The notes: generated by a model not told the origin, from the sequence alone. A DNA stretch of 20,000 bases from an uncultured virus (IMG/VR IMGVR_UViG_3300006131_000009) (IMGVR_UViG_3300006131_000009); one strand, 5' to 3'. Shown: positions 8,041 through 19,981, counted from the stretch's first letter. Translations and numbers: made by a program.

Positions 8041-10984
8041 TTAATCACCTCTCTGTTTTTTCAAATCTTTTATCGGATCATAAACCACTGATGCAAGTTC
8101 TTTCCCATTTTCTAATACAAGTTTGATTTGTATCGGCGCTTTGGAAGGCTGTCCAGTCTGTGACATAACGCCTGCAATACCGTTGACCATAGCACTCACA
8201 GCTTCCTGCCCCTGGTTTCTGCCGGAGGCAACAGAAAAATCCGACGGAATGGATCGCGTAAGATATGCTTTTGCCTCTTCTGCCGTCAAAACTCGTTCTC
8301 CCTGGTGCAGCTCTGCCATATAGCCATCATACGGAACAAACGGAAGGCCGCCGGCATGGGAACCGTCGACCGTAGGTTCTTCCGGATATGCAGCTGACAA
8401 TAATCTGGAGATTTCATCAGCAATAGATCTCGCTTTGGCATAAATCTCTTGTTCTTTGGAAGATAATCCATCCAACAGCCCTTGCCCTGTCTTTTCACCA
8501 CTGGTAAAGGCCGTATCTTTCATTGTATCAAGCGAATTGCCTAATTTTTCATTGTACTCTTCTTCCAGAGTCTTAAGTTCATTGGCATAAAACCTAGCCG
8601 AGATTTCCTGTGCAGTTTTTTGCTTTTCTTCCCAAAGGCCATTGTACTTTTCAAAGTCTTCATCAGACATCTCCAAGAGCTTTTTGCCAAATGCCGTAGC
8701 CTCATCAACGTCCATTGAAAGAATTTCCTGGAGTATTCCGTCACTGACGCCCTTCTCTTTCAGCATATCCAGGACATCGCTGTATTCCTCGATAGCGTCT
8801 GTCTGCTCCTGCAGATCTCCTAATGTGACGCTACCGTCGTCTTCAATTTTGAACAGGTCGCCATAGTCTGACATTTTATCAGCCATGTCCTCCTGTTTAT
8901 CCTTAACGGCATTCAGTCTGTCCTCCAGTGTATCAATCAGCTCATCAGTCTGCTTCTCCCAGAGCTCATTTTCTTCATCTGACAGCTGTTTATCGTATTT
9001 GAATATTTCCTCTGTGATCTTCCGGTATTCGTCCAGATTTGAGTCATCTGTCAGATATTTATCGCGGTACTCTTGCAGCTTTTCATAATATTCTTTATCA
9101 CTCAGCAGGTCCATATTGCGCTGATGGTCCAAGTCCTTTTGGAGCTTCTTAAAGGTTTCGGCGTCCTTTTGAGCCTGGGTCGTCATTGCTTTGGAGGCAC
9201 CAGCGGCGGCAGACACTACCGGCGGATAATTGCCCAGCTGGTTTATCGTTTGCTCCAACACCGCTTTTTGCGCTCGCATTGCTGCAATCTCTTCTGTACT
9301 GGCACCTGCAAATACCGCTTTAGCTTCTGCTGCACCTATATATGAATTAGCTGCCATAGCAGCCTCATATGCTTCTTCCCGCAAGGTCAGCTGTGCCTCT
9401 TCGCTTGCTATCTTGGCATTGAGGGTGGCAATCTGCTCTTCAATTTTGGATTTTGCCAAATTCACATAGGCTCGCTGGTCAATGGTCACAGCTCCGGACT
9501 CTTCGTCAATAGCCAGAGCCGCCGCATATCCGGCGTCAATCAGTTGTAGCGTTGTGTCAAGACTGAGTGAACCGTTAGACTCCTGCTCTTTCAGTGCGCT
9601 GGACAGCATATCATTAGCTTTGGTAAGACTTTTGGTCTGTTCCTCCAGCTCTTTCTGGGCCTTTTCCAAAGCTTCAGCACTGTTTGCAACTTGTTCCGCT
9701 TGTTCAGAGTTGCTTTCCATGCTATTAGTTGATGTATCAAACGCTTCAATTATCTCATCTACTATCTCTTTCGCAGAGTCCATTTCTGCCTTTGCTGCTG
9801 CAACGGTTTCATTGGATTCATCTAATGCTTTTTGATACTTATCAACTGATTTGCTGGCTTCAAAAATTTCTAATTCATATTCAGAGATAGCATCTCCTAG
9901 CTCATAGTATTCATCTGCAACGGCACGTCCTTCTGCTTGAGCCTGCTCGTATAGCTCATTGCGTCGCTCAATGGCCGCATCCAATCCTTTTTCAGCTGCT
10001 TCTCTTTTCTGTTTTGCCTCTGTCAGCTTGATCTCATTTTCTGCCGCATCCTGCAAGGCCTCTCCATACTTCTCATACAACGTATTAAGATAATTCTGAT
10101 ACGCCTGCTGCTTTGCATTTTCTACCCATGCCGCAGTATTTTTCTCCAAGGCTTCGGTGCCACCATTGATCTTATCAGTCTGCAGGTCGATTTGATCCGC
10201 AAGCTCCGGAATAGTCCTTGTGAGCAGTACTAATGTATTGTGATATTCTTTCTGCTGCTCATCCGTTTTCAGACCTGTCGCTTCCAGTTCTTTCAGCTTA
10301 TCAATGTACTGCTCTGCTACGGCTGCGGTTGCCAGAGTTTTAGTTTGAGACTCCTCCAGTGTCTCTTGAGCTTTTTTTAATTCATCGTTAAAATCTTCTT
10401 GCGCACCTTTGGCTAATTTGCTTGAAGCAATCCAAGAAATGAGTGCCGCCGCTGCACTGCCTAACACAGAAATCAGTGCTGTAATGCCATTAGACTTAAT
10501 TGCTGCATTGAGGGCCAGCTGCCCAGTAGTCGCGCCGGCTTGTGCAGCTTTTAGTGAGAACAATGCCTTGATAGCACCGCCTAATGCATTTGTAAATCCA
10601 CCTGTAAGTTTCAGCGACGGTCCAAGTGCTGCCAAAAACAAGCCAACCTGTACAACAGCTTTTCTTGTTCCCTCGTCTAAATCCGTAAAAGACTGAATCA
10701 GCTTTCCAAGATTTTGAATAATTGGCGTCACGATTGGCAACAGCTCGCTGCCAAGGGTTGCCGCCGCCTCTTTTAAGGACTCCTGCAGAATGCGAAGCTG
10801 ATTTGCTGTGCCATCTGACGTCCGGGCAAAATCGCCTTGAGCATTGGCGGTCATCTCCATAACATACTGATACCGCAGCGCCACTTTTTCCGCCTGGTCC
10901 ATTTGAGAATAGGTTTCTTTGAAGCCTTGAGACATCGCATAGTTGCTCAAATTTGTCTCGGTCATTACGACTCCAAGATTCTTT
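8041..10984 (-). CDS. Tail tape measure protein, exon 2 (spliced product 1299 aa)
   Basis: In frame with exon 1 after intron removal (L-KNLGVVMTETNL); EKVALRYQYVM..T.NAQGDFART; hydrophobic segments; long coiled coil; C-terminal GSHAGGL..VPYDGY.AELH.GERVLT. Confidence 0.92.
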
Positions 10985-11286
10985 CAATTATGTACCCTCG
11001 GTTTCCCGATATTTATTAGGGGTTTAGACTATATCTTCCTCTCAAAGAGAGGTCTGGCGCTTCGGACAGTGCTAATCTCTGCCCTACTTCCTTTCGGAAT
11101 AGTCTTTACACCTTCCGGTCAAAGACCGGCTTGGCACGGTATTCTCATAGTTTGTCTTTCACTTATGAAACAACTAACTTTAGAGTCCACCGTTAGCAAC
11201 TATACAATTTGCATAGCCACACCGCTTTTGCTTGCGTTCACCAGATTGTTTTTGCTACAGCTCACGCTATAGCCGCCCAAAGATTC
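10985..11286 (-). ncRNA. Group I self-splicing intron (IA-type core, ORF-less, 302 nt) in the tape measure gene
   Basis: 5' exon ends in U (GCCU pairs with GGGC, U-G wobble = P1); intron ends in G. P2 GCTATAGC-GTGA-GCTGTAGC; P3 TCTGGTG/CGCCAGA; P4 CGGTG/TACCG (AATACCGTGCCAAG); P6a CCGGTC-TTT-GACCGG; P7 GACTA/TAGTC with J8/7 AAGATATAGTC; P7.1 TTCC-GAAA-GGAA; P7.2 GGGCAG/CTGTCC; P8 CCTCTC-TTT-GAGAGG; P9 TCGG-GAAA-CCGA; P10 TCTTT/AAAGA. Excision restores the reading frame. Confidence 0.93.
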
Positions 11287-12242
11287 AGGCTTTCAGTTTC
11301 GCCGGTAAAAATTGATTTTAGAGCCGTATTAGCTGTCTCTATGGAGATATTCTTAAAAGATGCCAGATCAGCAGCCAAGCTCACCAGTGACTTTGACATC
11401 TCCGCTGCTTTTTCATCGGTAAAGCCCATTGCTGTCGCCATATCGCCATACAAGGCGGCCATATCCAAGGCTGTACCCTTTGCCAGACCTAAAGATGTCA
11501 ACGTCGTATCTGACCACTGCTTAATTATATTTGCGGAATCTCCAAAGGCCACCTCGACCTTGTTGAGCGCCTCGTCGGTATTGCTGGCATAGGAAACGGC
11601 GGCAGTTCCAGCCGCAGTTAGAGGAGCTGTAAGTCCCACTGACAGCTTATTTCCCACGCTATTCAGATTGTCTGCTGCAGCAGAAAACTCTTTGAATCTG
11701 CTCTTGGCCTCTACCAACGCTTTATTAGTCTTTTCAATGCTGGACGTTAAATCATTCACATCACGTTCAGCACGATTGACTTTTGTCTGCCATTCCTCCA
11801 CACCACGAGCCGCCGCGTCCTGATAAGATTTCGCCTGGGCCTGTGCTTTTTTATACTCTTCCAGCTCCTGCGTCAGCTTCTTCTGCTCCTCCACCGTATC
11901 GCCGGTAGAATCTTTCAGTGCAGCCAGTTTTCGTTCTGCCTCTGAAACCTTTGCACTATATGAAGCATAAGAGTCCGCGTGCTGTTTCTGTGCTTTTTGT
12001 GCATTTTCCAGGGCCAGCTTCAGCTCTTTAAGTTTTTCTCGCTCTTTGTCCTGTATCTTCAAAAGAGCGTCTTGTTTTGCACGCAATGCCTCAACAGAGT
12101 TAGCATCATCCTGATACTGGCTTTCTACTTTTTGAAGTTCGGACTGCAGAGTTTTCAAGGATGAATTGATGTCGGCAATCGAGCGTTTATACTCTTGTTC
12201 TCCCTCAATGGCTAATTTTGTTGAAATTGTCCTTACTGCCAT
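11287..12242 (-). CDS. Tail tape measure protein, exon 1 (codons 1-319)
   Basis: MAVRTISTKLAIEGEQEYK start with SD AAGGAGG; coiled coil; LSVGLTAPL..AG and LAADLASF.N motifs; ends …IFTGETES-CT at the 5' splice site. Confidence 0.9.
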
Positions 12243-12805: not shown

Positions 12806-13384
12806 TTAAGATGCATTTGTCGTTTTCCCTAGTTTTGTCTCACACCAAGTAACGGCAGCACTTTCTGTCTCCAGGATCTCGGTCTGCATCCATACCTCGC
12901 TGTTGCATTTCATAACAGTAAACGTGGTGCTGGCCGTCTGGAAACTGATAGAGCTACCTCGTGTAGAGGCATTGTCATTGCCCATCGCCGCCTGGACCTT
13001 GGGGAAGTAATATCCCTTATAGTAGGCCGTCCCAGTCTTATCCCGCATAGGGACGTAATATGTCAAGCCGCCATTAGGAGCCACATCCCCGGCAGAATAT
13101 GTCACGAGACCTTCTGCCGACGTTGCGCCGAAAATAACCGTCGCCACTTCATCGTCAAGGCCGTCTGTCTCCAGGGACAGAGAGCCGTTGGAAAAGTCCG
13201 TGACTTTAATATTCAGCGCATCGTCAGAGTACAACTCTCCGCTGGCCTGATTCACGGTCAAGTTGCCGGTAATCGCCTCGCCAATCGTCACGATCTCTGT
13301 GTCATAAGTCGGCAGAGCGTTGGCTGGCTCTGTTTTGATAACTGCAAATTTAGGCAGTTTCATGCCTGTTTTTACCTTGCTCAT
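12806..13384 (-). CDS. Major tail (tube) protein, phi13-family-like
   Basis: 192 aa; LYSDD, F..GSLSL….LD, YY.GYYFPKV, TRG.SISFQT; SD GGAGG upstream; lies before the chaperone and TMP genes. Confidence 0.85.
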   Translation of the reverse strand: MSKVKTGMKLPKFAVIKTEPANALPTYDTEIVTIGEAITGNLTVNQASGELYSDDALNIKVTDFSNGSLSLETDGLDDEVATVIFGATSAEGLVTYSAGDVAPNGGLTYYVPMRDKTGTAYYKGYYFPKVQAAMGNDNASTRGSSISFQTASTTFTVMKCNSEVWMQTEILETESAAVTWCETKLGKTTNAS

Positions 13385-14822: not shown

Positions 14823-15971
14823 TTAGGATGCTGCCTTCTGCACCAGCACAGCCAGCTTCTGATTGTCAGTTACCTTGCTGTCAAACTCAAACCAGGAAAC
14901 GACGCCAATCGCGTGCATAGTCGAGTATTTCTCGCGCAAAACCTCTACAGAGATGTTCTCCCGCATATTGACAGAAAGGCCGGAATAATCGCCGTAGAGC
15001 ACCGTCTTTGCACCTGCTGCCAGCGTCGGCATATTGTCAGAGAGATAGACAGGCTTTCCCAGCAGCCGGTACGGAAATTCTCCAGTGATGTCATCCTGGA
15101 GCAAATAACGGTTATTGCTGTCCTTCAGCTTTTTAATGGCCACAAAGGTATCAGGATGCATAGTCCAACAAGCATTGGCCTGGTAGACCTGCTTAACTTT
15201 AGACTGCAGATCGATGAGCTCATCTGCTGTAATAGCCGCTGCGCCAGCAGCAGTCAGGCTCGTAGTAGTGTCCAATGCGCCGGTCGCCTTATTGGCAGTA
15301 CCGACAAGCAGCTCTTTTTCCAGGAAGGAGGCGATCTCCTCTGCCATCTGATTGACAATAAAATTCACCACAGAGAAAGTACCGTTGTTCTCCACACTCT
15401 TGCCGATCAGTGTCAGAGCGCCTGCCAGATAACCGGACAGGTCTACAGAAGTAAACTTGCCTGCATCGGCTGTGATTTCTGTAAATTCGTTCTGATAGCC
15501 CACAGTGATGTCATGGGTATTGTTGGCCTTGCCCCAAACCGGCACCTTCAGCGTACCTTTGACATTATAAATCGTCGCCTTTGCCAAAATCGGGCAGCGG
15601 TCCTTGACGGCCTTGATAATGCGATTGGCAATGGACGTCGGGATAATAGCGCCGTTGTTGGCCATTGTCATATTCTGTTCGCCGGCACGCAGCTCCGATA
15701 CCTTACCCAGAATAAAGTTTGCAAAGTCGGCCTCTTCCTGAATTGCCCGCTCTTCGGCTGCGTCAGGGATCGCCTTCTTTTCTACATTCCTGGCCCGCTC
15801 TTCTCTTGCGACGGTCTCATCGATTGCCTTGATTTCCCGCTCTGCCGCGTCAAACTTGGCGACCTCTTCTTCCGTCATTGCTCTTGTCTCCTGATCTGCA
15901 GTGCTGACCAGCTCGTCCATAGACTGCTGCAGCTCCGCTCTTTTTTCCATCAGTGCTTTCAAATTCGTCAT
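14823..15971 (-). CDS. Major capsid protein, HK97 fold with N-terminal coiled-coil delta (scaffold) domain
   Basis: 382 aa; charged helical first ~95 aa, then NGAIIPTSIANRII, LKDSNNRYL, LLGKPVY.SD.MP, YGDYS. Confidence 0.95.
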   Translation of the reverse strand: MTNLKALMEKRAELQQSMDELVSTADQETRAMTEEEVAKFDAAEREIKAIDETVAREERARNVEKKAIPDAAEERAIQEEADFANFILGKVSELRAGEQNMTMANNGAIIPTSIANRIIKAVKDRCPILAKATIYNVKGTLKVPVWGKANNTHDITVGYQNEFTEITADAGKFTSVDLSGYLAGALTLIGKSVENNGTFSVVNFIVNQMAEEIASFLEKELLVGTANKATGALDTTTSLTAAGAAAITADELIDLQSKVKQVYQANACWTMHPDTFVAIKKLKDSNNRYLLQDDITGEFPYRLLGKPVYLSDNMPTLAAGAKTVLYGDYSGLSVNMRENISVEVLREKYSTMHAIGVVSWFEFDSKVTDNQKLAVLVQKAAS

Positions 15972-17826: not shown

Positions 17827-19503
17827 CTATGTTTGGACTACAAACTCATCTGCGCCGAACAGCATATCCTGCTGCAGCAGGTATACCGCATCTACTGTTG
17901 CCATCAACATATCGATTTTCCCTGTGCTTTTTTTCTTGCTTAAGTACATATTCAGATTTGTATCATACAACGCTCTTGCATTTTGAAAGTTGCCTTCATA
18001 CTGCATATCGGCATTATATTTGAAATTCCCGCCAAGGATACTGTCTCGAAGCAGCTTGATCGGCGGATGCAGGACGCTTGAATGCTGTTTGATCTCTATA
18101 CATTCAAATCCGGCAGCATCCAGTTTATTTGCTGTACTGATACAGTTATAGCGGTCGTAACCGATCTGCAGCACGTTCACGCTATACTTTTCCGGCAGCT
18201 CAACAATAAACTGTTCAATAAACTCATAGCTGACGACCTCATCGCCGCACGGAAAACAGGAGCCAGCTTGTATAAACCGTCTATAATCCGTTCTCTCCAG
18301 CTTGCTTTTGCTGTCAACTCTTTCTGCCGGTATGAATGACCATGCTTTTGCTATGATCTTATCTCCGTCTGCTGCAACCATCGCAACGGCGCAGTTATCA
18401 TTTGTCATCGCTAAATCAATCCCAACATACACATCGCGTCCCGTCCAATCGATTGCAGCATCACTGCGGCACTTTTTTACATCTTCGATTGCAATAAATG
18501 CCTCGCCGCTGTTGCTTGGCACAAAGTGATTCATATGCTTTGTAAGAAATTCTTCGCGTTCTGAAGGCTTTGCCAGAGCTTTTGCACGGCTTTCTTTTAT
18601 CTCATAATAGTTCTCCGGCACACGCAACGGATTTGCCATTTGCAGTCCTATATCATCCCACAGGTGCTCCTCCGGCGCATAATACAGCATTGCAAATAGG
18701 CGGTCATCTGCTTCTGTCTCCCCATAAATACGCCGCAGATAATCCAGCTCGTCCAACATGATGGATTTGTCTTCTGCATATGCCGTTGTCACTTTGAACA
18801 TTAGGGGATTCTTCACACTTAACTGGCCGGATTTCATGGCGGCAACATTTGAATTGTCTTTCATGGCACCGTATTCGTCAGCGACAAAAGCAGATGGTCT
18901 GATCGCATTATTTCTATTGGCCTCTGCTGTGCGCGGCTGGTAAAAGCTGTGGGTAAGCATACATTCTACCCGGCCTGATAGAGTTTTGGGGATGCGGAAA
19001 TATTCAATCAAAGCAGGACTCGCCTCAATGATCTGCCGGATGGCCTTTTTGACCTCGCCGGCCAGGTCCCGGTCCAAGCAAATGGAATAAAACTCACTGT
19101 AATTCTCTTCTGTCAACATGAGAATGATGATGACCAGCGCAACCAAAAACGTCTTTGCATTTTTTCGTGGAACAAATAGTATTCCTTCTCGGTATCGGAA
19201 TTTGTCTGAATCAGATTTGCACCGCCAGCCAAAAATGTTGGCAATAAAAAAAGCCTGGAAATCTTCCAGCGCATCGTATATCCGCTTTCCGACAACACCT
19301 ATGCCCGTTGCAAAGTTCATAATTTTCAGAAGATTCTCAACAATGCGCAATTTCTTGTGGTCAAAATAGTACGCATAAATTTCTTGATTTTGTTTATCCA
19401 GATCCTCAAGAAACCATTCACACTGCTTTTTCACTTCCAGTGTTGTGATTTCCTCACCAGAGATACATCTCTGCGCATAATCCATCGCTTTCTCATACAG
19501 CAT
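17827..19503 (-). CDS. terL: Terminase large subunit (probable start ATG 19503, 558 aa)
   Basis: Walker A-like VPRKNAKT, Walker B AFVADE, nuclease motif VYVGIDLA, YDRYN and C-terminal KIDMLMA. Start trimmed from the track's 19638 because the extension overlaps terS and GGGGTGG precedes ATG 19503. Confidence 0.95.
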   Translation of the reverse strand: MLYEKAMDYAQRCISGEEITTLEVKKQCEWFLEDLDKQNQEIYAYYFDHKKLRIVENLLKIMNFATGIGVVGKRIYDALEDFQAFFIANIFGWRCKSDSDKFRYREGILFVPRKNAKTFLVALVIIILMLTEENYSEFYSICLDRDLAGEVKKAIRQIIEASPALIEYFRIPKTLSGRVECMLTHSFYQPRTAEANRNNAIRPSAFVADEYGAMKDNSNVAAMKSGQLSVKNPLMFKVTTAYAEDKSIMLDELDYLRRIYGETEADDRLFAMLYYAPEEHLWDDIGLQMANPLRVPENYYEIKESRAKALAKPSEREEFLTKHMNHFVPSNSGEAFIAIEDVKKCRSDAAIDWTGRDVYVGIDLAMTNDNCAVAMVAADGDKIIAKAWSFIPAERVDSKSKLERTDYRRFIQAGSCFPCGDEVVSYEFIEQFIVELPEKYSVNVLQIGYDRYNCISTANKLDAAGFECIEIKQHSSVLHPPIKLLRDSILGGNFKYNADMQYEGNFQNARALYDTNLNMYLSKKKSTGKIDMLMATVDAVYLLQQDMLFGADEFVVQT

Positions 19504-19981
19504 CCGCGCCACCCCGTAACGCATCAAGTAATGGATCACTCTTAACTTCCGGCTTTTTCGGGATCGCCCGCAGTGCGCTTGCGATGGTGAAGCCGTTTTC
19601 CTTCTCAATGGCAAATCGCTTCGCCCTGTATGTCTCAATCCGGCTGTCGGCGTCCATGATCAGCTTGTACCTTTTACCGGAGTCAATGCTGTCATCATCC
19701 TGGATTGCCTCGCGCATCTCCATGTAGCGGAGAATATCGGCCTTATAGACGCAGTAGTCATTGATGACCGCCTCGTATAGTGCATCATTTTTTCCTGCAG
19801 CAGACAGCAGCTCTATCACCCGCTCGTACTCGCTATGCGCAACATTGCTCGATTTCACCTCTAACGACTCCCGAATGGGGATCCCCGTCAAGGCCGCCTT
19901 TTCTGCCGCCTTCCGGTGAGCAAGTTCTGCTTTCGTTGTATGATACTTCAAGTTTTCACTTGATTTGCTTGGCCTCGCCAT
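19493..19981 (-). CDS. terS: Terminase small subunit (P27-family-like)
   Basis: 162 aa directly upstream of and overlapping TerL; basic N-terminus MARPSKS…TKAE…R; C-terminal GFT..S..R pattern typical of cos-type small terminases. Confidence 0.8.
   Translation of the reverse strand: MARPSKSSENLKYHTTKAELAHRKAAEKAALTGIPIRESLEVKSSNVAHSEYERVIELLSAAGKNDALYEAVINDYCVYKADILRYMEMREAIQDDDSIDSGKRYKLIMDADSRIETYRAKRFAIEKENGFTIASALRAIPKKPEVKSDPLLDALRGGADAV

What the first reader, a model, noticed from the sequence alone, without database searches (positions are those of the whole stretch)
10985..11286. ORF-less group I ribozyme interrupts the tail tape measure gene, so tail assembly would depend on self-splicing
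Seen in sequence: the two apparent TMP ORFs (326 and 974 aa) are separated by 302 nt that contain the full group I core. This includes P1 with a U-G pair at the 5' splice site, P3, P4, P6, P7 GACTA/TAGTC, J8/7 AAGATATAGTC, P8, P9 with a GAAA loop, P10 and a terminal G. Joining 11287 to 10984 gives AGC CT|A AAG AAT CTT GGA GTC GTA ATG (S-L-K-N-L-G-V-V-M) and a 1299-aa protein. The unspliced mRNA stops at a TGA in the P2 GTGA loop. Established: P7.1/P7.2 hairpins mark subgroup IA, and phage group I introns are best known from nucleotide-metabolism, polymerase, terminase and lysin genes, less so from TMP (I cannot claim none has been described). Inference: automated annotation would call this a split pseudogene, but it is probably functional, and splicing efficiency could gate virion production.
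Basis: partly seen in the sequence, partly recalled or inferred. Interest (0 to 1): 0.9.

Follow-up and report, generated by a model that had tools for sequence, protein, structure and literature searches.

The report
Self-splicing intron in phage tape-measure gene
A 302-base self-splicing (group I) RNA intron without a gene of its own splits the tail-length ruler gene of a mouse-gut phage; it is real and precisely placed, but it is one more example of something already described in other phages.

Summary
Window 11286..10985 (minus strand, 302 nt) is a subgroup-IA group I intron that splits a siphovirus tape measure (TMP) gene into 956-nt and 2944-nt exons. Joining 11287 to 10984 gives one 1299-aa ORF reading ...TGETESL|KNLGVVM....

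The boundaries are fixed to the base by two intron-less alleles: viral contig L005 and a 14-kb contig of a DNA metagenome that skips exactly these 302 nt. Flavonifractor phage Cormatin TMP aligns L377|K378 across the joint.

Rfam RF00028 matches full length but below its threshold (31.7 vs 50 bits). The fold is supported by the unconstrained MFE (z = -5.2) and by covariation in 13 related introns.

Relatives occupy the same TMP motif with a homing-endonuclease ORF (L075, L123 group) or without one (L100 group).

No RNA data bridge the joint, so splicing is inferred. TMP group I introns, ORF-less ones included, are published (Bacillus cereus-group prophages, 2008; Vibrio phage ICP1, 2023, spliced). 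This scan has noted them before on other DNA (84 notes). Verdict: real, well anchored, ordinary.

The parts
11287..12242 (-). TMP exon 1 (956 nt; ATG at 12242; last base U pairs with G9 of the intron)
   Evidence: ORF list. PHROG TMP families, e.g. phrog_1535 profile 16-294. Aligns to Cormatin TMP up to L377.
10985..11286 (-). Group I intron, 302 nt, no ORF (intron position n = window 11287-n)
   Evidence: RF00028 31.7 bits, full model 1-253. Exactly this stretch is missing in L005 and in a DNA-run contig. MFE z = -5.23.
8041..10984 (-). TMP exon 2 (2944 nt including the stop codon)
   Evidence: Aligns to Cormatin TMP from K378. phrog_1535 profile 305-401 continues from exon 1. The joined ORF is 1299 aa.
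11275..11290 (-). P1: exon GCCU plus intron GA pair with the internal guide UUGGGC; U(-1):G9 wobble at the 5' splice site
   Evidence: Pair list. Same guide in L075. The guide changes to GCGG with exon CCGU in L100.
11254..11273 (-). P2 hairpin (8 bp, GUGA loop) holding the in-frame stop TGA at 11264-11262
   Evidence: MFE fold; translation.
11239..11245 (-). P3 5' strand (intron 42-48, UCUGGUG)
   Evidence: Pairs with intron 228-234. Across 13 related introns there are 0 broken cells, and 4 of the 7 pairs change on both sides.
11196..11236 (-). Two extra hairpins (intron 51-64 and 67-91) between P3 and P4, that is, inside J3/4
   Evidence: MFE fold. Both helices covary in alignment A2. The same layout is in L075 and L014 with other sequences.
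11136..11193 (-). P4-P5-P5a (intron 94-151). The P5a loop is where relatives carry the endonuclease ORF.
   Evidence: MFE fold; P4 is invariant in the family; L075 sequence.
11110..11135 (-). P6/P6a (intron 152-177)
   Evidence: Three P6a pairs change on both sides.
11100..11104 (-). P7 5' strand GACUA (intron 183-187)
   Evidence: Rfam alignment; invariant in 13 of 13 sequences.
11064..11099 (-). P7.1 (UUCC-GAAA-GGAA) and P7.2 (GGGCAG...CUGUCC), the subgroup-IA extras
   Evidence: MFE fold. Of 15 relatives folded, 11 show two clean hairpins at this place, 2 more (L101, L120) show two in another form, and 2 (L100, L094) show P7.2 only.
11053..11059 (-). P3 3' strand (intron 228-234, CGCCAGA)
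11038..11052 (-). P8 hairpin (intron 235-249)
   Evidence: Five of 6 pairs change on both sides.
11027..11037 (-). J8/7 AAGAUA plus P7 3' strand UAGUC (intron 250-260)
   Evidence: Identical to the RF00028 consensus; invariant in the family.
10985..11022 (-). P9 region with the UCGG-GAAA-CCGA hairpin, 3' tail and terminal G at 10985
   Evidence: This stretch is 84-98% identical to the 3' ends of introns in Staphylococcus, Listeria, Enterococcus and Bacillus phages.
10980..10984 (-). P10 partner: exon 2 bases +1..+5 (AAAGA) pair with intron U8..U4
   Evidence: Pair list. Here G(+4):C5, against A(+4):U5 in L075.

Best explanation
The 302 nt are a functional subgroup-IA group I intron that lacks an endonuclease gene and sits inside the most conserved motif of a siphovirus tape measure gene (ALKSIFTGETESL|KNLGVVMT). 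The phage comes from mouse-gut metagenomes, and its nearest TMP relatives are in Oscillospiraceae. After late transcription the RNA folds into the P3-P9 core. The guide sequence UUGGGC pairs with the exon end GCCU (P1, U:G wobble). An external guanosine attacks after U11287. The freed exon end then attacks after the terminal G10985, aligned by P10 (UCUUU with AAAGA). The exons are ligated into an mRNA for one 1299-aa TMP. Ribosomes that read unspliced RNA stop 8 codons into the intron and give a 326-aa fragment. The intron is the endonuclease-less stage of a homing lineage. Relatives at the same motif carry a NUMOD or GIY-YIG homing-endonuclease ORF in the P5a loop, and close relatives of this phage have the empty site. 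Shown here: sequence anatomy, exact boundaries, restored reading frame, family covariation, and occupied and empty alleles. Inferred: that it splices in vivo, that it needs no protein helper, and the homing history.
For: Boundaries. L005 (89-93% DNA identity in the flanks) reads ...GAAAGCCT|AAAAAATCTTGGAGTC, and BLAST places the gap at exactly 11286..10985. A 14,138-nt contig of DNA run X12 joins 10984 to 11287, skipping 302 nt. Cormatin TMP aligns ...TGETESL377 to exon 1 and K378ELGVVMTQ to exon 2.

Frame. The join is 1299 aa with no internal stop. Both halves hit the same TMP profile in consecutive positions.

Ribozyme. RF00028 matches full length, E = 4.3e-6 on 901 nt and 9.5e-5 on the window, with J8/7 and P7 identical to the consensus. 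The unconstrained MFE reproduces P2, P3, P4, P5, P6, P6a, P7.1, P7.2 and P8, z = -5.23. In 13 related ORF-less introns, 94.3% of cells pair against 76.6% in shuffles, 27 of 52 pairs change on both sides, 0 of 500 shuffles reach any measure, and slid controls give 32-46%.

Splice-site pairings track the exons. Window has C5:G(+4), L075 has U5:A(+4), and L100 has guide GCGG with exon CCGU and a 7-bp P10.

Same site elsewhere. L075 carries a 1363-nt homologue with a 340-aa NUMOD1 ORF. L123, L124 and L162 carry a GIY-YIG ORF. Seven L100-type loci are ORF-less.

Homologues are single genes. The intron-bearing form is on several contigs: G001, L006, L007, L016.
Against: No RNA evidence. The three RNA-labelled runs that were laid gave only low-depth exon pieces and none crosses the joint. 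The Rfam score is 18 bits under the curated threshold, so the default search is blank. All intron-bearing copies of this phage are identical, and the runs that hold them belong to one study, so they do not show long-term maintenance on their own. The structure used was derived from the same alignment, which inflates the percentage paired, though not the two-sided changes. P7 and P4 never vary in the family and so give no covariation test. A Shine-Dalgarno-like GGAG lies 5 nt before ATG 10965, so separate translation of exon 2 cannot be excluded from sequence alone.
Confidence: 0.87

Rival explanations
1. It is a decayed, no longer splicing intron remnant. The TMP gene is broken and this phage or prophage is defective for tail assembly.
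For: No spliced RNA was seen. Rfam scores below threshold. The intron has lost its endonuclease ORF relative to L075 and the L123 group. The identical intron-bearing copies come from one study.
Against: Every core element is intact, and the pairs that differ from relatives are compensated: P3, P7.2 and P10 against L075 and the family-wide counts. Both exons are open and 98.7% identical in protein to the intron-less L005 over 300 aa. The rest of the structural module is intact. According to Tourasse & Kolsto, loss of the endonuclease gene with retention of splicing is the usual state of such introns (PMC2504315).
Confidence: 0.07
2. The TMP is made as two separate polypeptides: 326 aa ending in the intron, and 974 aa started at ATG 10965 behind a GGAG. 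The two assemble without RNA splicing.
For: Both ORFs have start codons. GGAG lies 5 nt upstream of ATG 10965.
Against: The break lies inside the best-conserved motif of the family (alignment A1). The GGAG is part of the conserved codons for L-G-V and is also present in the intron-less L005. No homologue is split at this place except by a homologous intron: 64 of 67 genome loci span it, as do all 60 listed phage rows and 15 of 15 plasmid rows.
Confidence: 0.04
3. The intron splices, but its rate is regulatory. Splicing efficiency, for example coupled to translation of exon 1 up to the stop in P2, sets how much TMP and hence how many virions are made.
For: The in-frame stop lies only 8 codons into the intron, inside P2, so ribosomes would pass through P1 and P2. 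That translation influences splicing of the T4 td intron is recalled from the literature and was not checked here.
Against: Nothing in the sequence distinguishes regulation from a neutral selfish insertion. Close relatives do without the intron, which argues that it is dispensable.
Confidence: 0.1

Closest known systems
Group I introns TMP-IVS1, -IVS2, -IVS3a/b in tape measure genes of Bacillus cereus-group prophages (Tourasse & Kolsto 2008, NAR 36:4529, PMC2504315; section 8 read in full)
   Same: Group I introns of subclass IA1/IA2 inside prophage TMP genes. Most lack an endonuclease gene; the paper says only TMP-IVS3a of KBAB4 and term-IVS1 encode one. Intron-plus and intron-minus alleles both occur. 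P1 and P10 are adapted to the site. The introns are related to introns of Gram-positive phages.
   Different: The host is different (Bacillus versus a probable Oscillospiraceae phage from mouse gut). The TMP family is also different: the pBWB404 TMP has no significant similarity to this one (best tblastn E = 1.2), and its break lies in another motif (...GAQIFGR). Rfam does not detect that intron either. Whether any of IVS1-3 is the homologous site could not be decided, because figures are not held.
Introns in the tape measure gene of Vibrio phage ICP1 (Barth et al. 2023, NAR Genom Bioinform, PMC10448857; passages read)
   Same: The TMP transcript is interrupted by introns, some without an endonuclease gene. 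The paper calls TMP a frequently interrupted gene.
   Different: Splicing there was shown by RNA-seq and RT-PCR, whereas here it is only inferred. That case is a Gram-negative host with four exons and an HNH endonuclease.
Group I introns of large Gram-positive myophages (Staphylococcus Twort/K-like, Listeria A511-like, Enterococcus, Bacillus SPO1-like)
   Same: The last 43-60 nt of this intron (P8 3' strand, J8/7, P7, P9) are 84-98% identical to theirs. The Enterococcus phage EH93P1 terL intron matches 158 nt at 74.8% (267 records).
   Different: No record covers 80% or more of the intron. The 5' half, with two hairpins in J3/4, and the host gene differ. That these relatives are classed IA2 is recalled, not tested.
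Endonuclease-bearing relatives at the same TMP motif found here (L075 in a Clostridia MAG; L123/L124/L162 in IMG/VR contigs)
   Same: L075 has the same insertion point, the same guide sequence, and the same core and 3' end. The L123 group is broken at the same TMP residue.
   Different: They carry a 340-aa NUMOD1 ORF or a 264-aa GIY-YIG ORF in the P5a loop. The window's intron has a 36-nt hairpin there. For the L123 group the exact junction, guide and core were not compared.

Membership tests
Group I intron (Rfam RF00028) | Score at or above the curated gathering threshold (50 bits) | tested here: not met
   The score is 31.7 bits. Nothing is found in default mode. It is found in E-value mode over the full model 1-253. 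The model mis-places the P3 5' strand because of the insert in J3/4. The same model also misses L075 and the published pBWB404 TMP intron.
Group I intron (Rfam RF00028) | Conserved core: P3-P4-P6-P7-P8 with the P3/P7 pseudoknot, and the J8/7 and P7 consensus | tested here: met
   MFE fold. RNAalifold and pair counts on 13 relatives. GAAGAUAUAGUCU and AAAGACUA are identical to the consensus.
Group I intron (Rfam RF00028) | 5' splice site after a U that forms a U:G wobble with the internal guide sequence (P1) | tested here: met
   U(-1):G9, C:G, C:G, G:C. The guide co-varies with the exon in L100.
Group I intron (Rfam RF00028) | Terminal G at the 3' end and P10 pairing with the 3' exon | tested here: met
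   G at 10985. The boundaries are unambiguous against the empty sites. P10 has 5 bp, with a compensated difference in L075.
Group I intron (Rfam RF00028) | Removal restores the host reading frame at a conserved site | tested here: met
   1299-aa ORF. Cormatin aligns L377|K378. L005 reads ESLKNLGVVM uninterrupted.
Group I intron (Rfam RF00028) | Guanosine-dependent self-splicing | not testable with these tools
   No RNA contig bridges the joint. This needs RT-PCR or in vitro splicing.
Subgroup IA | Extra helices P7.1 and P7.2 between P7 and the P3 3' strand (definition recalled from Michel & Westhof 1990) | tested here: met
   Two hairpins at intron 188-199 and 203-223. Of 15 relatives folded, 11 show two clean hairpins, 2 more (L101, L120) show two in another form, and 2 show P7.2 only. 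IA1 versus IA2 was not resolved.
Mobile (homing) group I intron | Intron-encoded homing endonuclease | tested here: not met
   No sense ORF fits in 302 nt. The only ORF of 60 aa or more is antisense (10943..11272, +) and has no PHROG hit. Relatives at the same site do carry one.
Phage tail tape measure protein | TMP profile match, position after the major tail protein and chaperone-sized ORFs, length of ~1000 aa or more | tested here: met
   13 and 12 PHROG families hit the two halves, most of them annotated as TMP. The gene order is terminase-portal-protease-capsid-...-major tail-TMP.

The most novel reading that the evidence does not exclude
The motif GETE(S/P)L|K of one widespread TMP family may be a dedicated landing site for a single lineage of IA introns. 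All three stages of the homing cycle (endonuclease-bearing, endonuclease-less, empty) coexist at this site among gut Clostridia phages. On this reading the ORF-less copy in the window still spreads, because the GIY-YIG or NUMOD endonucleases of co-infecting relatives cut empty sites in trans. The two conserved hairpins inserted in J3/4, seen in about half of the subfamily, would be a peripheral domain that has not been described.
Probability: 0.3. Interest if true: 0.4.

Novelty: new member of a known kind. Interest (0 to 1): 0.27.

Why it matters
The main value is for annotation. Gene callers will report this TMP as two genes or a pseudogene, and the default Rfam run stays silent. Gut-phage catalogues will therefore under-count intact tail modules and group I introns. 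The locus is also a clean natural series for studying intron homing in phages of anaerobic gut Clostridia: an empty site, an ORF-less intron and endonuclease-bearing introns at one motif. It does not open a new question. Introns in TMP genes, their ORF-less forms and their splicing are already in print.

Tried and rejected
1. RNA evidence. I laid X17, X18 and X20 together with one DNA run. The RNA-labelled runs gave only exon pieces at depth 2-4 and nothing across the joint, so they say nothing for or against splicing. Short pieces at 10993-11038 with loose ends are the conserved 3' ends of other introns in those samples.

2. Own genome. The window's assembly is not held. The nearest record, G001, is a 16.6-kb viral fragment with the identical intron.

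3. Wider search for near relatives. A 24-base core pattern found only 3 viral stretches, two of them this phage. A slightly shorter 23-base version found 2 metagenome records. A shorter 16-base pattern was needed to find more.

4. I first read P3 as including a GCU/AGC extension next to J3/4. RNAalifold instead pairs that GC with the GU before hairpin 2. The two readings are not separable, because those pairs never vary.

5. Same site as the Bacillus TMP introns? The pBWB404 TMP is not detectably related and Rfam sees no intron there, so this is undecided.

6. A literature search on insertions in J3/4 was not possible, because the term was rejected. I did not search further, so I make no claim that this feature is unpublished.

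7. Flank identity around the joint between the window and the X12 contig (no difference within 36 and 72 nt) could reflect co-conversion. It is equally expected from the strong protein conservation, so I do not use it.

8. A covariance model of my own was not built, because at 302 positions I expected calibration to run over the time limit. MAFFT plus RNAalifold was used instead. P7.1 and P7.2 are therefore misaligned in A2, and I checked them by folding each sequence.

Full report
**What is in the window.** The minus strand carries a siphovirus late module. In order it holds:
- small and large terminase (17827-19638), portal, prohead protease and capsid (14823-15971);
- head-tail connectors and major tail protein (12806-13384);
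- two ORFs of 326 aa (11262-12242) and 974 aa (8041-10965), both of which hit tape measure profiles;
- tail proteins and an amidase endolysin (2209-2901).

The two TMP ORFs hit the same PHROG profile in consecutive positions (phrog_1535: 16-294, then 305-401). They look like one gene cut in two.

**The insert is a group I intron.** With Rfam's curated thresholds the window gives no match at all. In E-value mode RF00028 matches 11278-11004 (minus strand) over the whole model (1-253). The score is 31.7 bits against a threshold of 50, with E = 4.3e-6 on 901 nt. On the whole window E is 9.5e-5, and it is the only match at or below 0.05. The J8/7-P7 stretch GAAGAUAUAGUCU and the P7 5' strand AAAGACUA equal the consensus. 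The model mis-places the P3 5' strand, which explains part of the low score.

An unconstrained MFE fold of the 302 nt (-99.8 kcal/mol; z = -5.23; 0 of 100 shuffles as stable) gives P2, P3, P4, P5/P5a, P6/P6a, P7.1, P7.2 and P8 in the canonical order. P7 is the usual pseudoknot and cannot appear in such a fold.

blastn of the intron against 50,697 phage records finds 267 records. None covers 80% or more of the intron. The last 43-60 nt are 84-98% identical to introns of Staphylococcus, Listeria, Enterococcus and Bacillus myophages. The terL intron of Enterococcus phage EH93P1 matches 158 nt at 74.8%.

**Boundaries, to the base.** Three independent comparisons agree.
- Viral contig L005 is 93% and 89% identical in the flanks. 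It reads ...GAAACTGAAAGCCT|AAAAAATCTTGGAGTCGTAATG... with no insert, and BLAST puts the gap at exactly 11286..10985.
- A 14,138-nt contig of a DNA metagenome run (X12, about 95% identical) joins 10984 to 11287, skipping 302 nt. Because the run is DNA, this is an empty allele and not spliced RNA.
- Flavonifractor phage Cormatin has an uninterrupted 1496-aa TMP. It aligns ...ALKSIFTGETESL377 with the end of exon 1 and K378ELGVVMTQ with the start of exon 2.

The first and last intron bases (G...G) differ from the neighbouring exon bases, so the cut cannot slide. The coordinate join is 3900 nt = 1299 aa without an internal stop, with the junction IFTGETESL-KNLGVVMTE.

**Splice-site pairings.** P1 consists of U(-1):G9, C:G10, C:G11 and G:C12, plus G1:U8 and A2:U7 on the intron side. 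P10 pairs exon 2 bases +1..+5 (AAAGA) with U8..U4. The unspliced frame runs into TGA 11264-11262 in the GUGA loop of P2.

**The gene is single in relatives.**
- tblastn of the junction-spanning 300 aa of L005 finds 279 phage records. All 60 listed rows are one piece across residue 150.
- All 15 plasmid hits are likewise one piece.
- Of 67 prophage TMP loci fetched from species-representative genomes, 64 span the joint. Two stop at contig ends (L082, L083). One, L075, is broken at precisely this residue.
- The closest of these loci are in Oscillospiraceae MAGs (64-72% identity). Together with Cormatin and the mouse-gut runs that hold the window, this suggests an Oscillospiraceae host. That is an inference.

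**Relatives at the same site.** L075 lies in an uncultured Clostridia MAG and carries a 1363-nt insert (637-1999).
- It has the same first bases and the same guide sequence (GAGAUUUUGGGC).
- It has the same Q/P6/P7 core and the same 3' end (...GGGUAGUAAUUG).
- It holds a 340-aa ORF in the P5a loop with a NUMOD1 domain (2.3e-9) and homing-endonuclease PHROG hits.
- Rfam does not see this intron.
- Differences from the window's intron are compensated. In P3, U44-A232 becomes C-G. In P7.1, UUCC/GGAA becomes ACCC/GGGU. In P7.2, A207-U219 becomes G-C (read). In P10, C5:G(+4) becomes U5:A(+4).

A 16-base core pattern found at least 109 stretches in IMG/VR, of which 80 were fetched. In 11 of these 80 the same TMP family is interrupted at the same residue:
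- Seven loci have a short ORF-less intron (L100, L104, L110, L147, L152, L159, L166). In L100 it is 267 nt, with the joint ...GETEP-L-KSLGIN..., one base upstream within the Leu codon, and with guide GCGG matching exon CCGU and a 7-bp P10.
- Three loci have an insert of about 1.06 kb (L123, L124, L162). The 264-aa ORF in L123 has a GIY-YIG domain (5.1e-6, above cut-off).
- In L093 only the exon 2 side matched.

The motif therefore carries endonuclease-bearing, endonuclease-less and empty alleles. This is the pattern expected from the homing cycle, which is established knowledge, and Tourasse & Kolsto discuss it for Bacillus.

**Covariation.** I picked 12 of the 22 non-duplicate short ORF-less 'type B' relatives by eye and aligned them with the window's intron (A2). 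RNAalifold, with no input from me, predicted P2, P3, both J3/4 hairpins, P4, P5, P6, P6a, P8 and the P9 hairpin. I added P7 as a pseudoknot and counted the pairs:
- 94.3% of 671 cells pair, against 76.6% in shuffles.
- 27 of 52 pairs change on both sides.
- 0 of 500 shuffles reach any of the five measures.
- Sliding one strand by 1-3 columns drops pairing to 32-46%.
- P3 (intron 42-48 with 228-234) has no broken cell, and 4 of its 7 pairs covary.
- P4, P6 and P7 never vary, so they are uninformative.

Caveats: the structure came from the same alignment, and the sequences are related. Between P7 and P3', 11 of 15 sequences folded singly give two clean hairpins. Two more (L101, L120) give two in another form, and L100 and L094 have P7.2 only.

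**What is not shown.** No RNA contig crosses the joint. Splicing, its independence of protein helpers, and any regulatory role remain inferences.

**Comparison with the literature.**
- Tourasse & Kolsto 2008 (PMC2504315; section 8 read in full, other passages via find) describe group I introns of classes IA1/IA2 at three sites in TMP genes of B. cereus-group prophages. By their statement only one of the TMP introns encodes an endonuclease.
- Barth et al. 2023 (PMC10448857; passages) call TMP a frequently interrupted gene. They show by RNA-seq and RT-PCR that the TMP transcript of Vibrio phage ICP1 has four exons and three introns.
- Pope et al. 2013 (PMC3706429; passages) show spliced introns in capsid and minor tail genes of mycobacteriophages.
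- This scan's own notes list 84 findings that hold these words, in at least 63 genomes. One earlier window shares 13 of 98 short words with this intron. These notes are unchecked leads and I do not use them as evidence.

**Verdict.** The element is a well-anchored new member of a known kind. I give about 0.87 that it splices to yield the 1299-aa TMP.

Noticed in passing
window 11196-11236 (-); also L075:686-723, L014, and many of L087-L166: Between the P3 5' strand and P4, where group I introns normally have a 3-4 nt J3/4, this intron has GUG-AA-[hairpin]-GUGU-[hairpin]-GCUAA-CGGUG. By a regex on 73 non-duplicate loci of the subfamily, 35 have this layout ('type B'), 20 have the plain GUG-AAAA-CGGUG, and 18 were unclassified. 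Both hairpins covary. I could not check whether this is described in print.
   Followed up: partly
L087-L166 (IMG/VR loci with the core AATACCGTGCCAAGCC): The subfamily sits in many essential phage genes. Of 74 non-duplicate loci, 58 gave a 5'-exon peptide (16 gave none) and I scanned 49 of those, leaving out 9 near-duplicates. The hits were: TMP 6, DNA polymerase 7, major head protein 6, terminase large subunit 2, UvsX-like recombinase 2, NrdD 2, RNR large subunit 1, DnaB helicase 1, endonuclease 1, unknown-function PHROG only 4, no hit 17.
   Followed up: partly
L100:1682-1948 and six near-identical loci: In a TMP only 35-46% identical to this one, a related ORF-less intron (267 nt) sits one base upstream in the same Leu codon (T|TA, against CT|A here). 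Its guide and P10 are re-matched to the local exon sequence.
   Followed up: yes
L075 (whole locus); L196:26500-31300 (pBWB404): RF00028 finds neither the endonuclease-bearing homologue in L075 nor the published TMP-IVS3b intron region of pBWB404, even in permissive mode. Rfam-based counts of phage group I introns are therefore likely to be too low.
   Followed up: partly
L014 / G002 (181-kb viral contig), about 95.8-96.5 kb; also G002:C1:34621-36816: A 181-kb phage carries a related type-B intron, with an ORF after P3', in a gene whose upstream exon looks by eye like a peptidoglycan-binding or lysin protein. It has two further sub-threshold RF00028 hits (35.7 and 30.9 bits) about 2 kb apart.
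   Followed up: no
window 10966-10976 (-): A GGAG 5 nt upstream of ATG 10965 could serve as a ribosome-binding site for exon 2 alone. It is part of the conserved L-G-V codons and is present in the intron-less L005 as well.
   Followed up: partly
window 10981 (-), exon 2 base +4: This base is G in the window and in the intron-less X12 contig, but A in the intron-less L005 and in the intron-bearing L075. In L075 the intron partner is U instead of C. The polymorphism is therefore not tied to intron presence, but where an intron is present P10 is kept.
   Followed up: yes
window 10943-11272 (+): A 109-aa antisense ORF spans the intron. It has no PHROG hit and is most likely spurious.
   Followed up: yes
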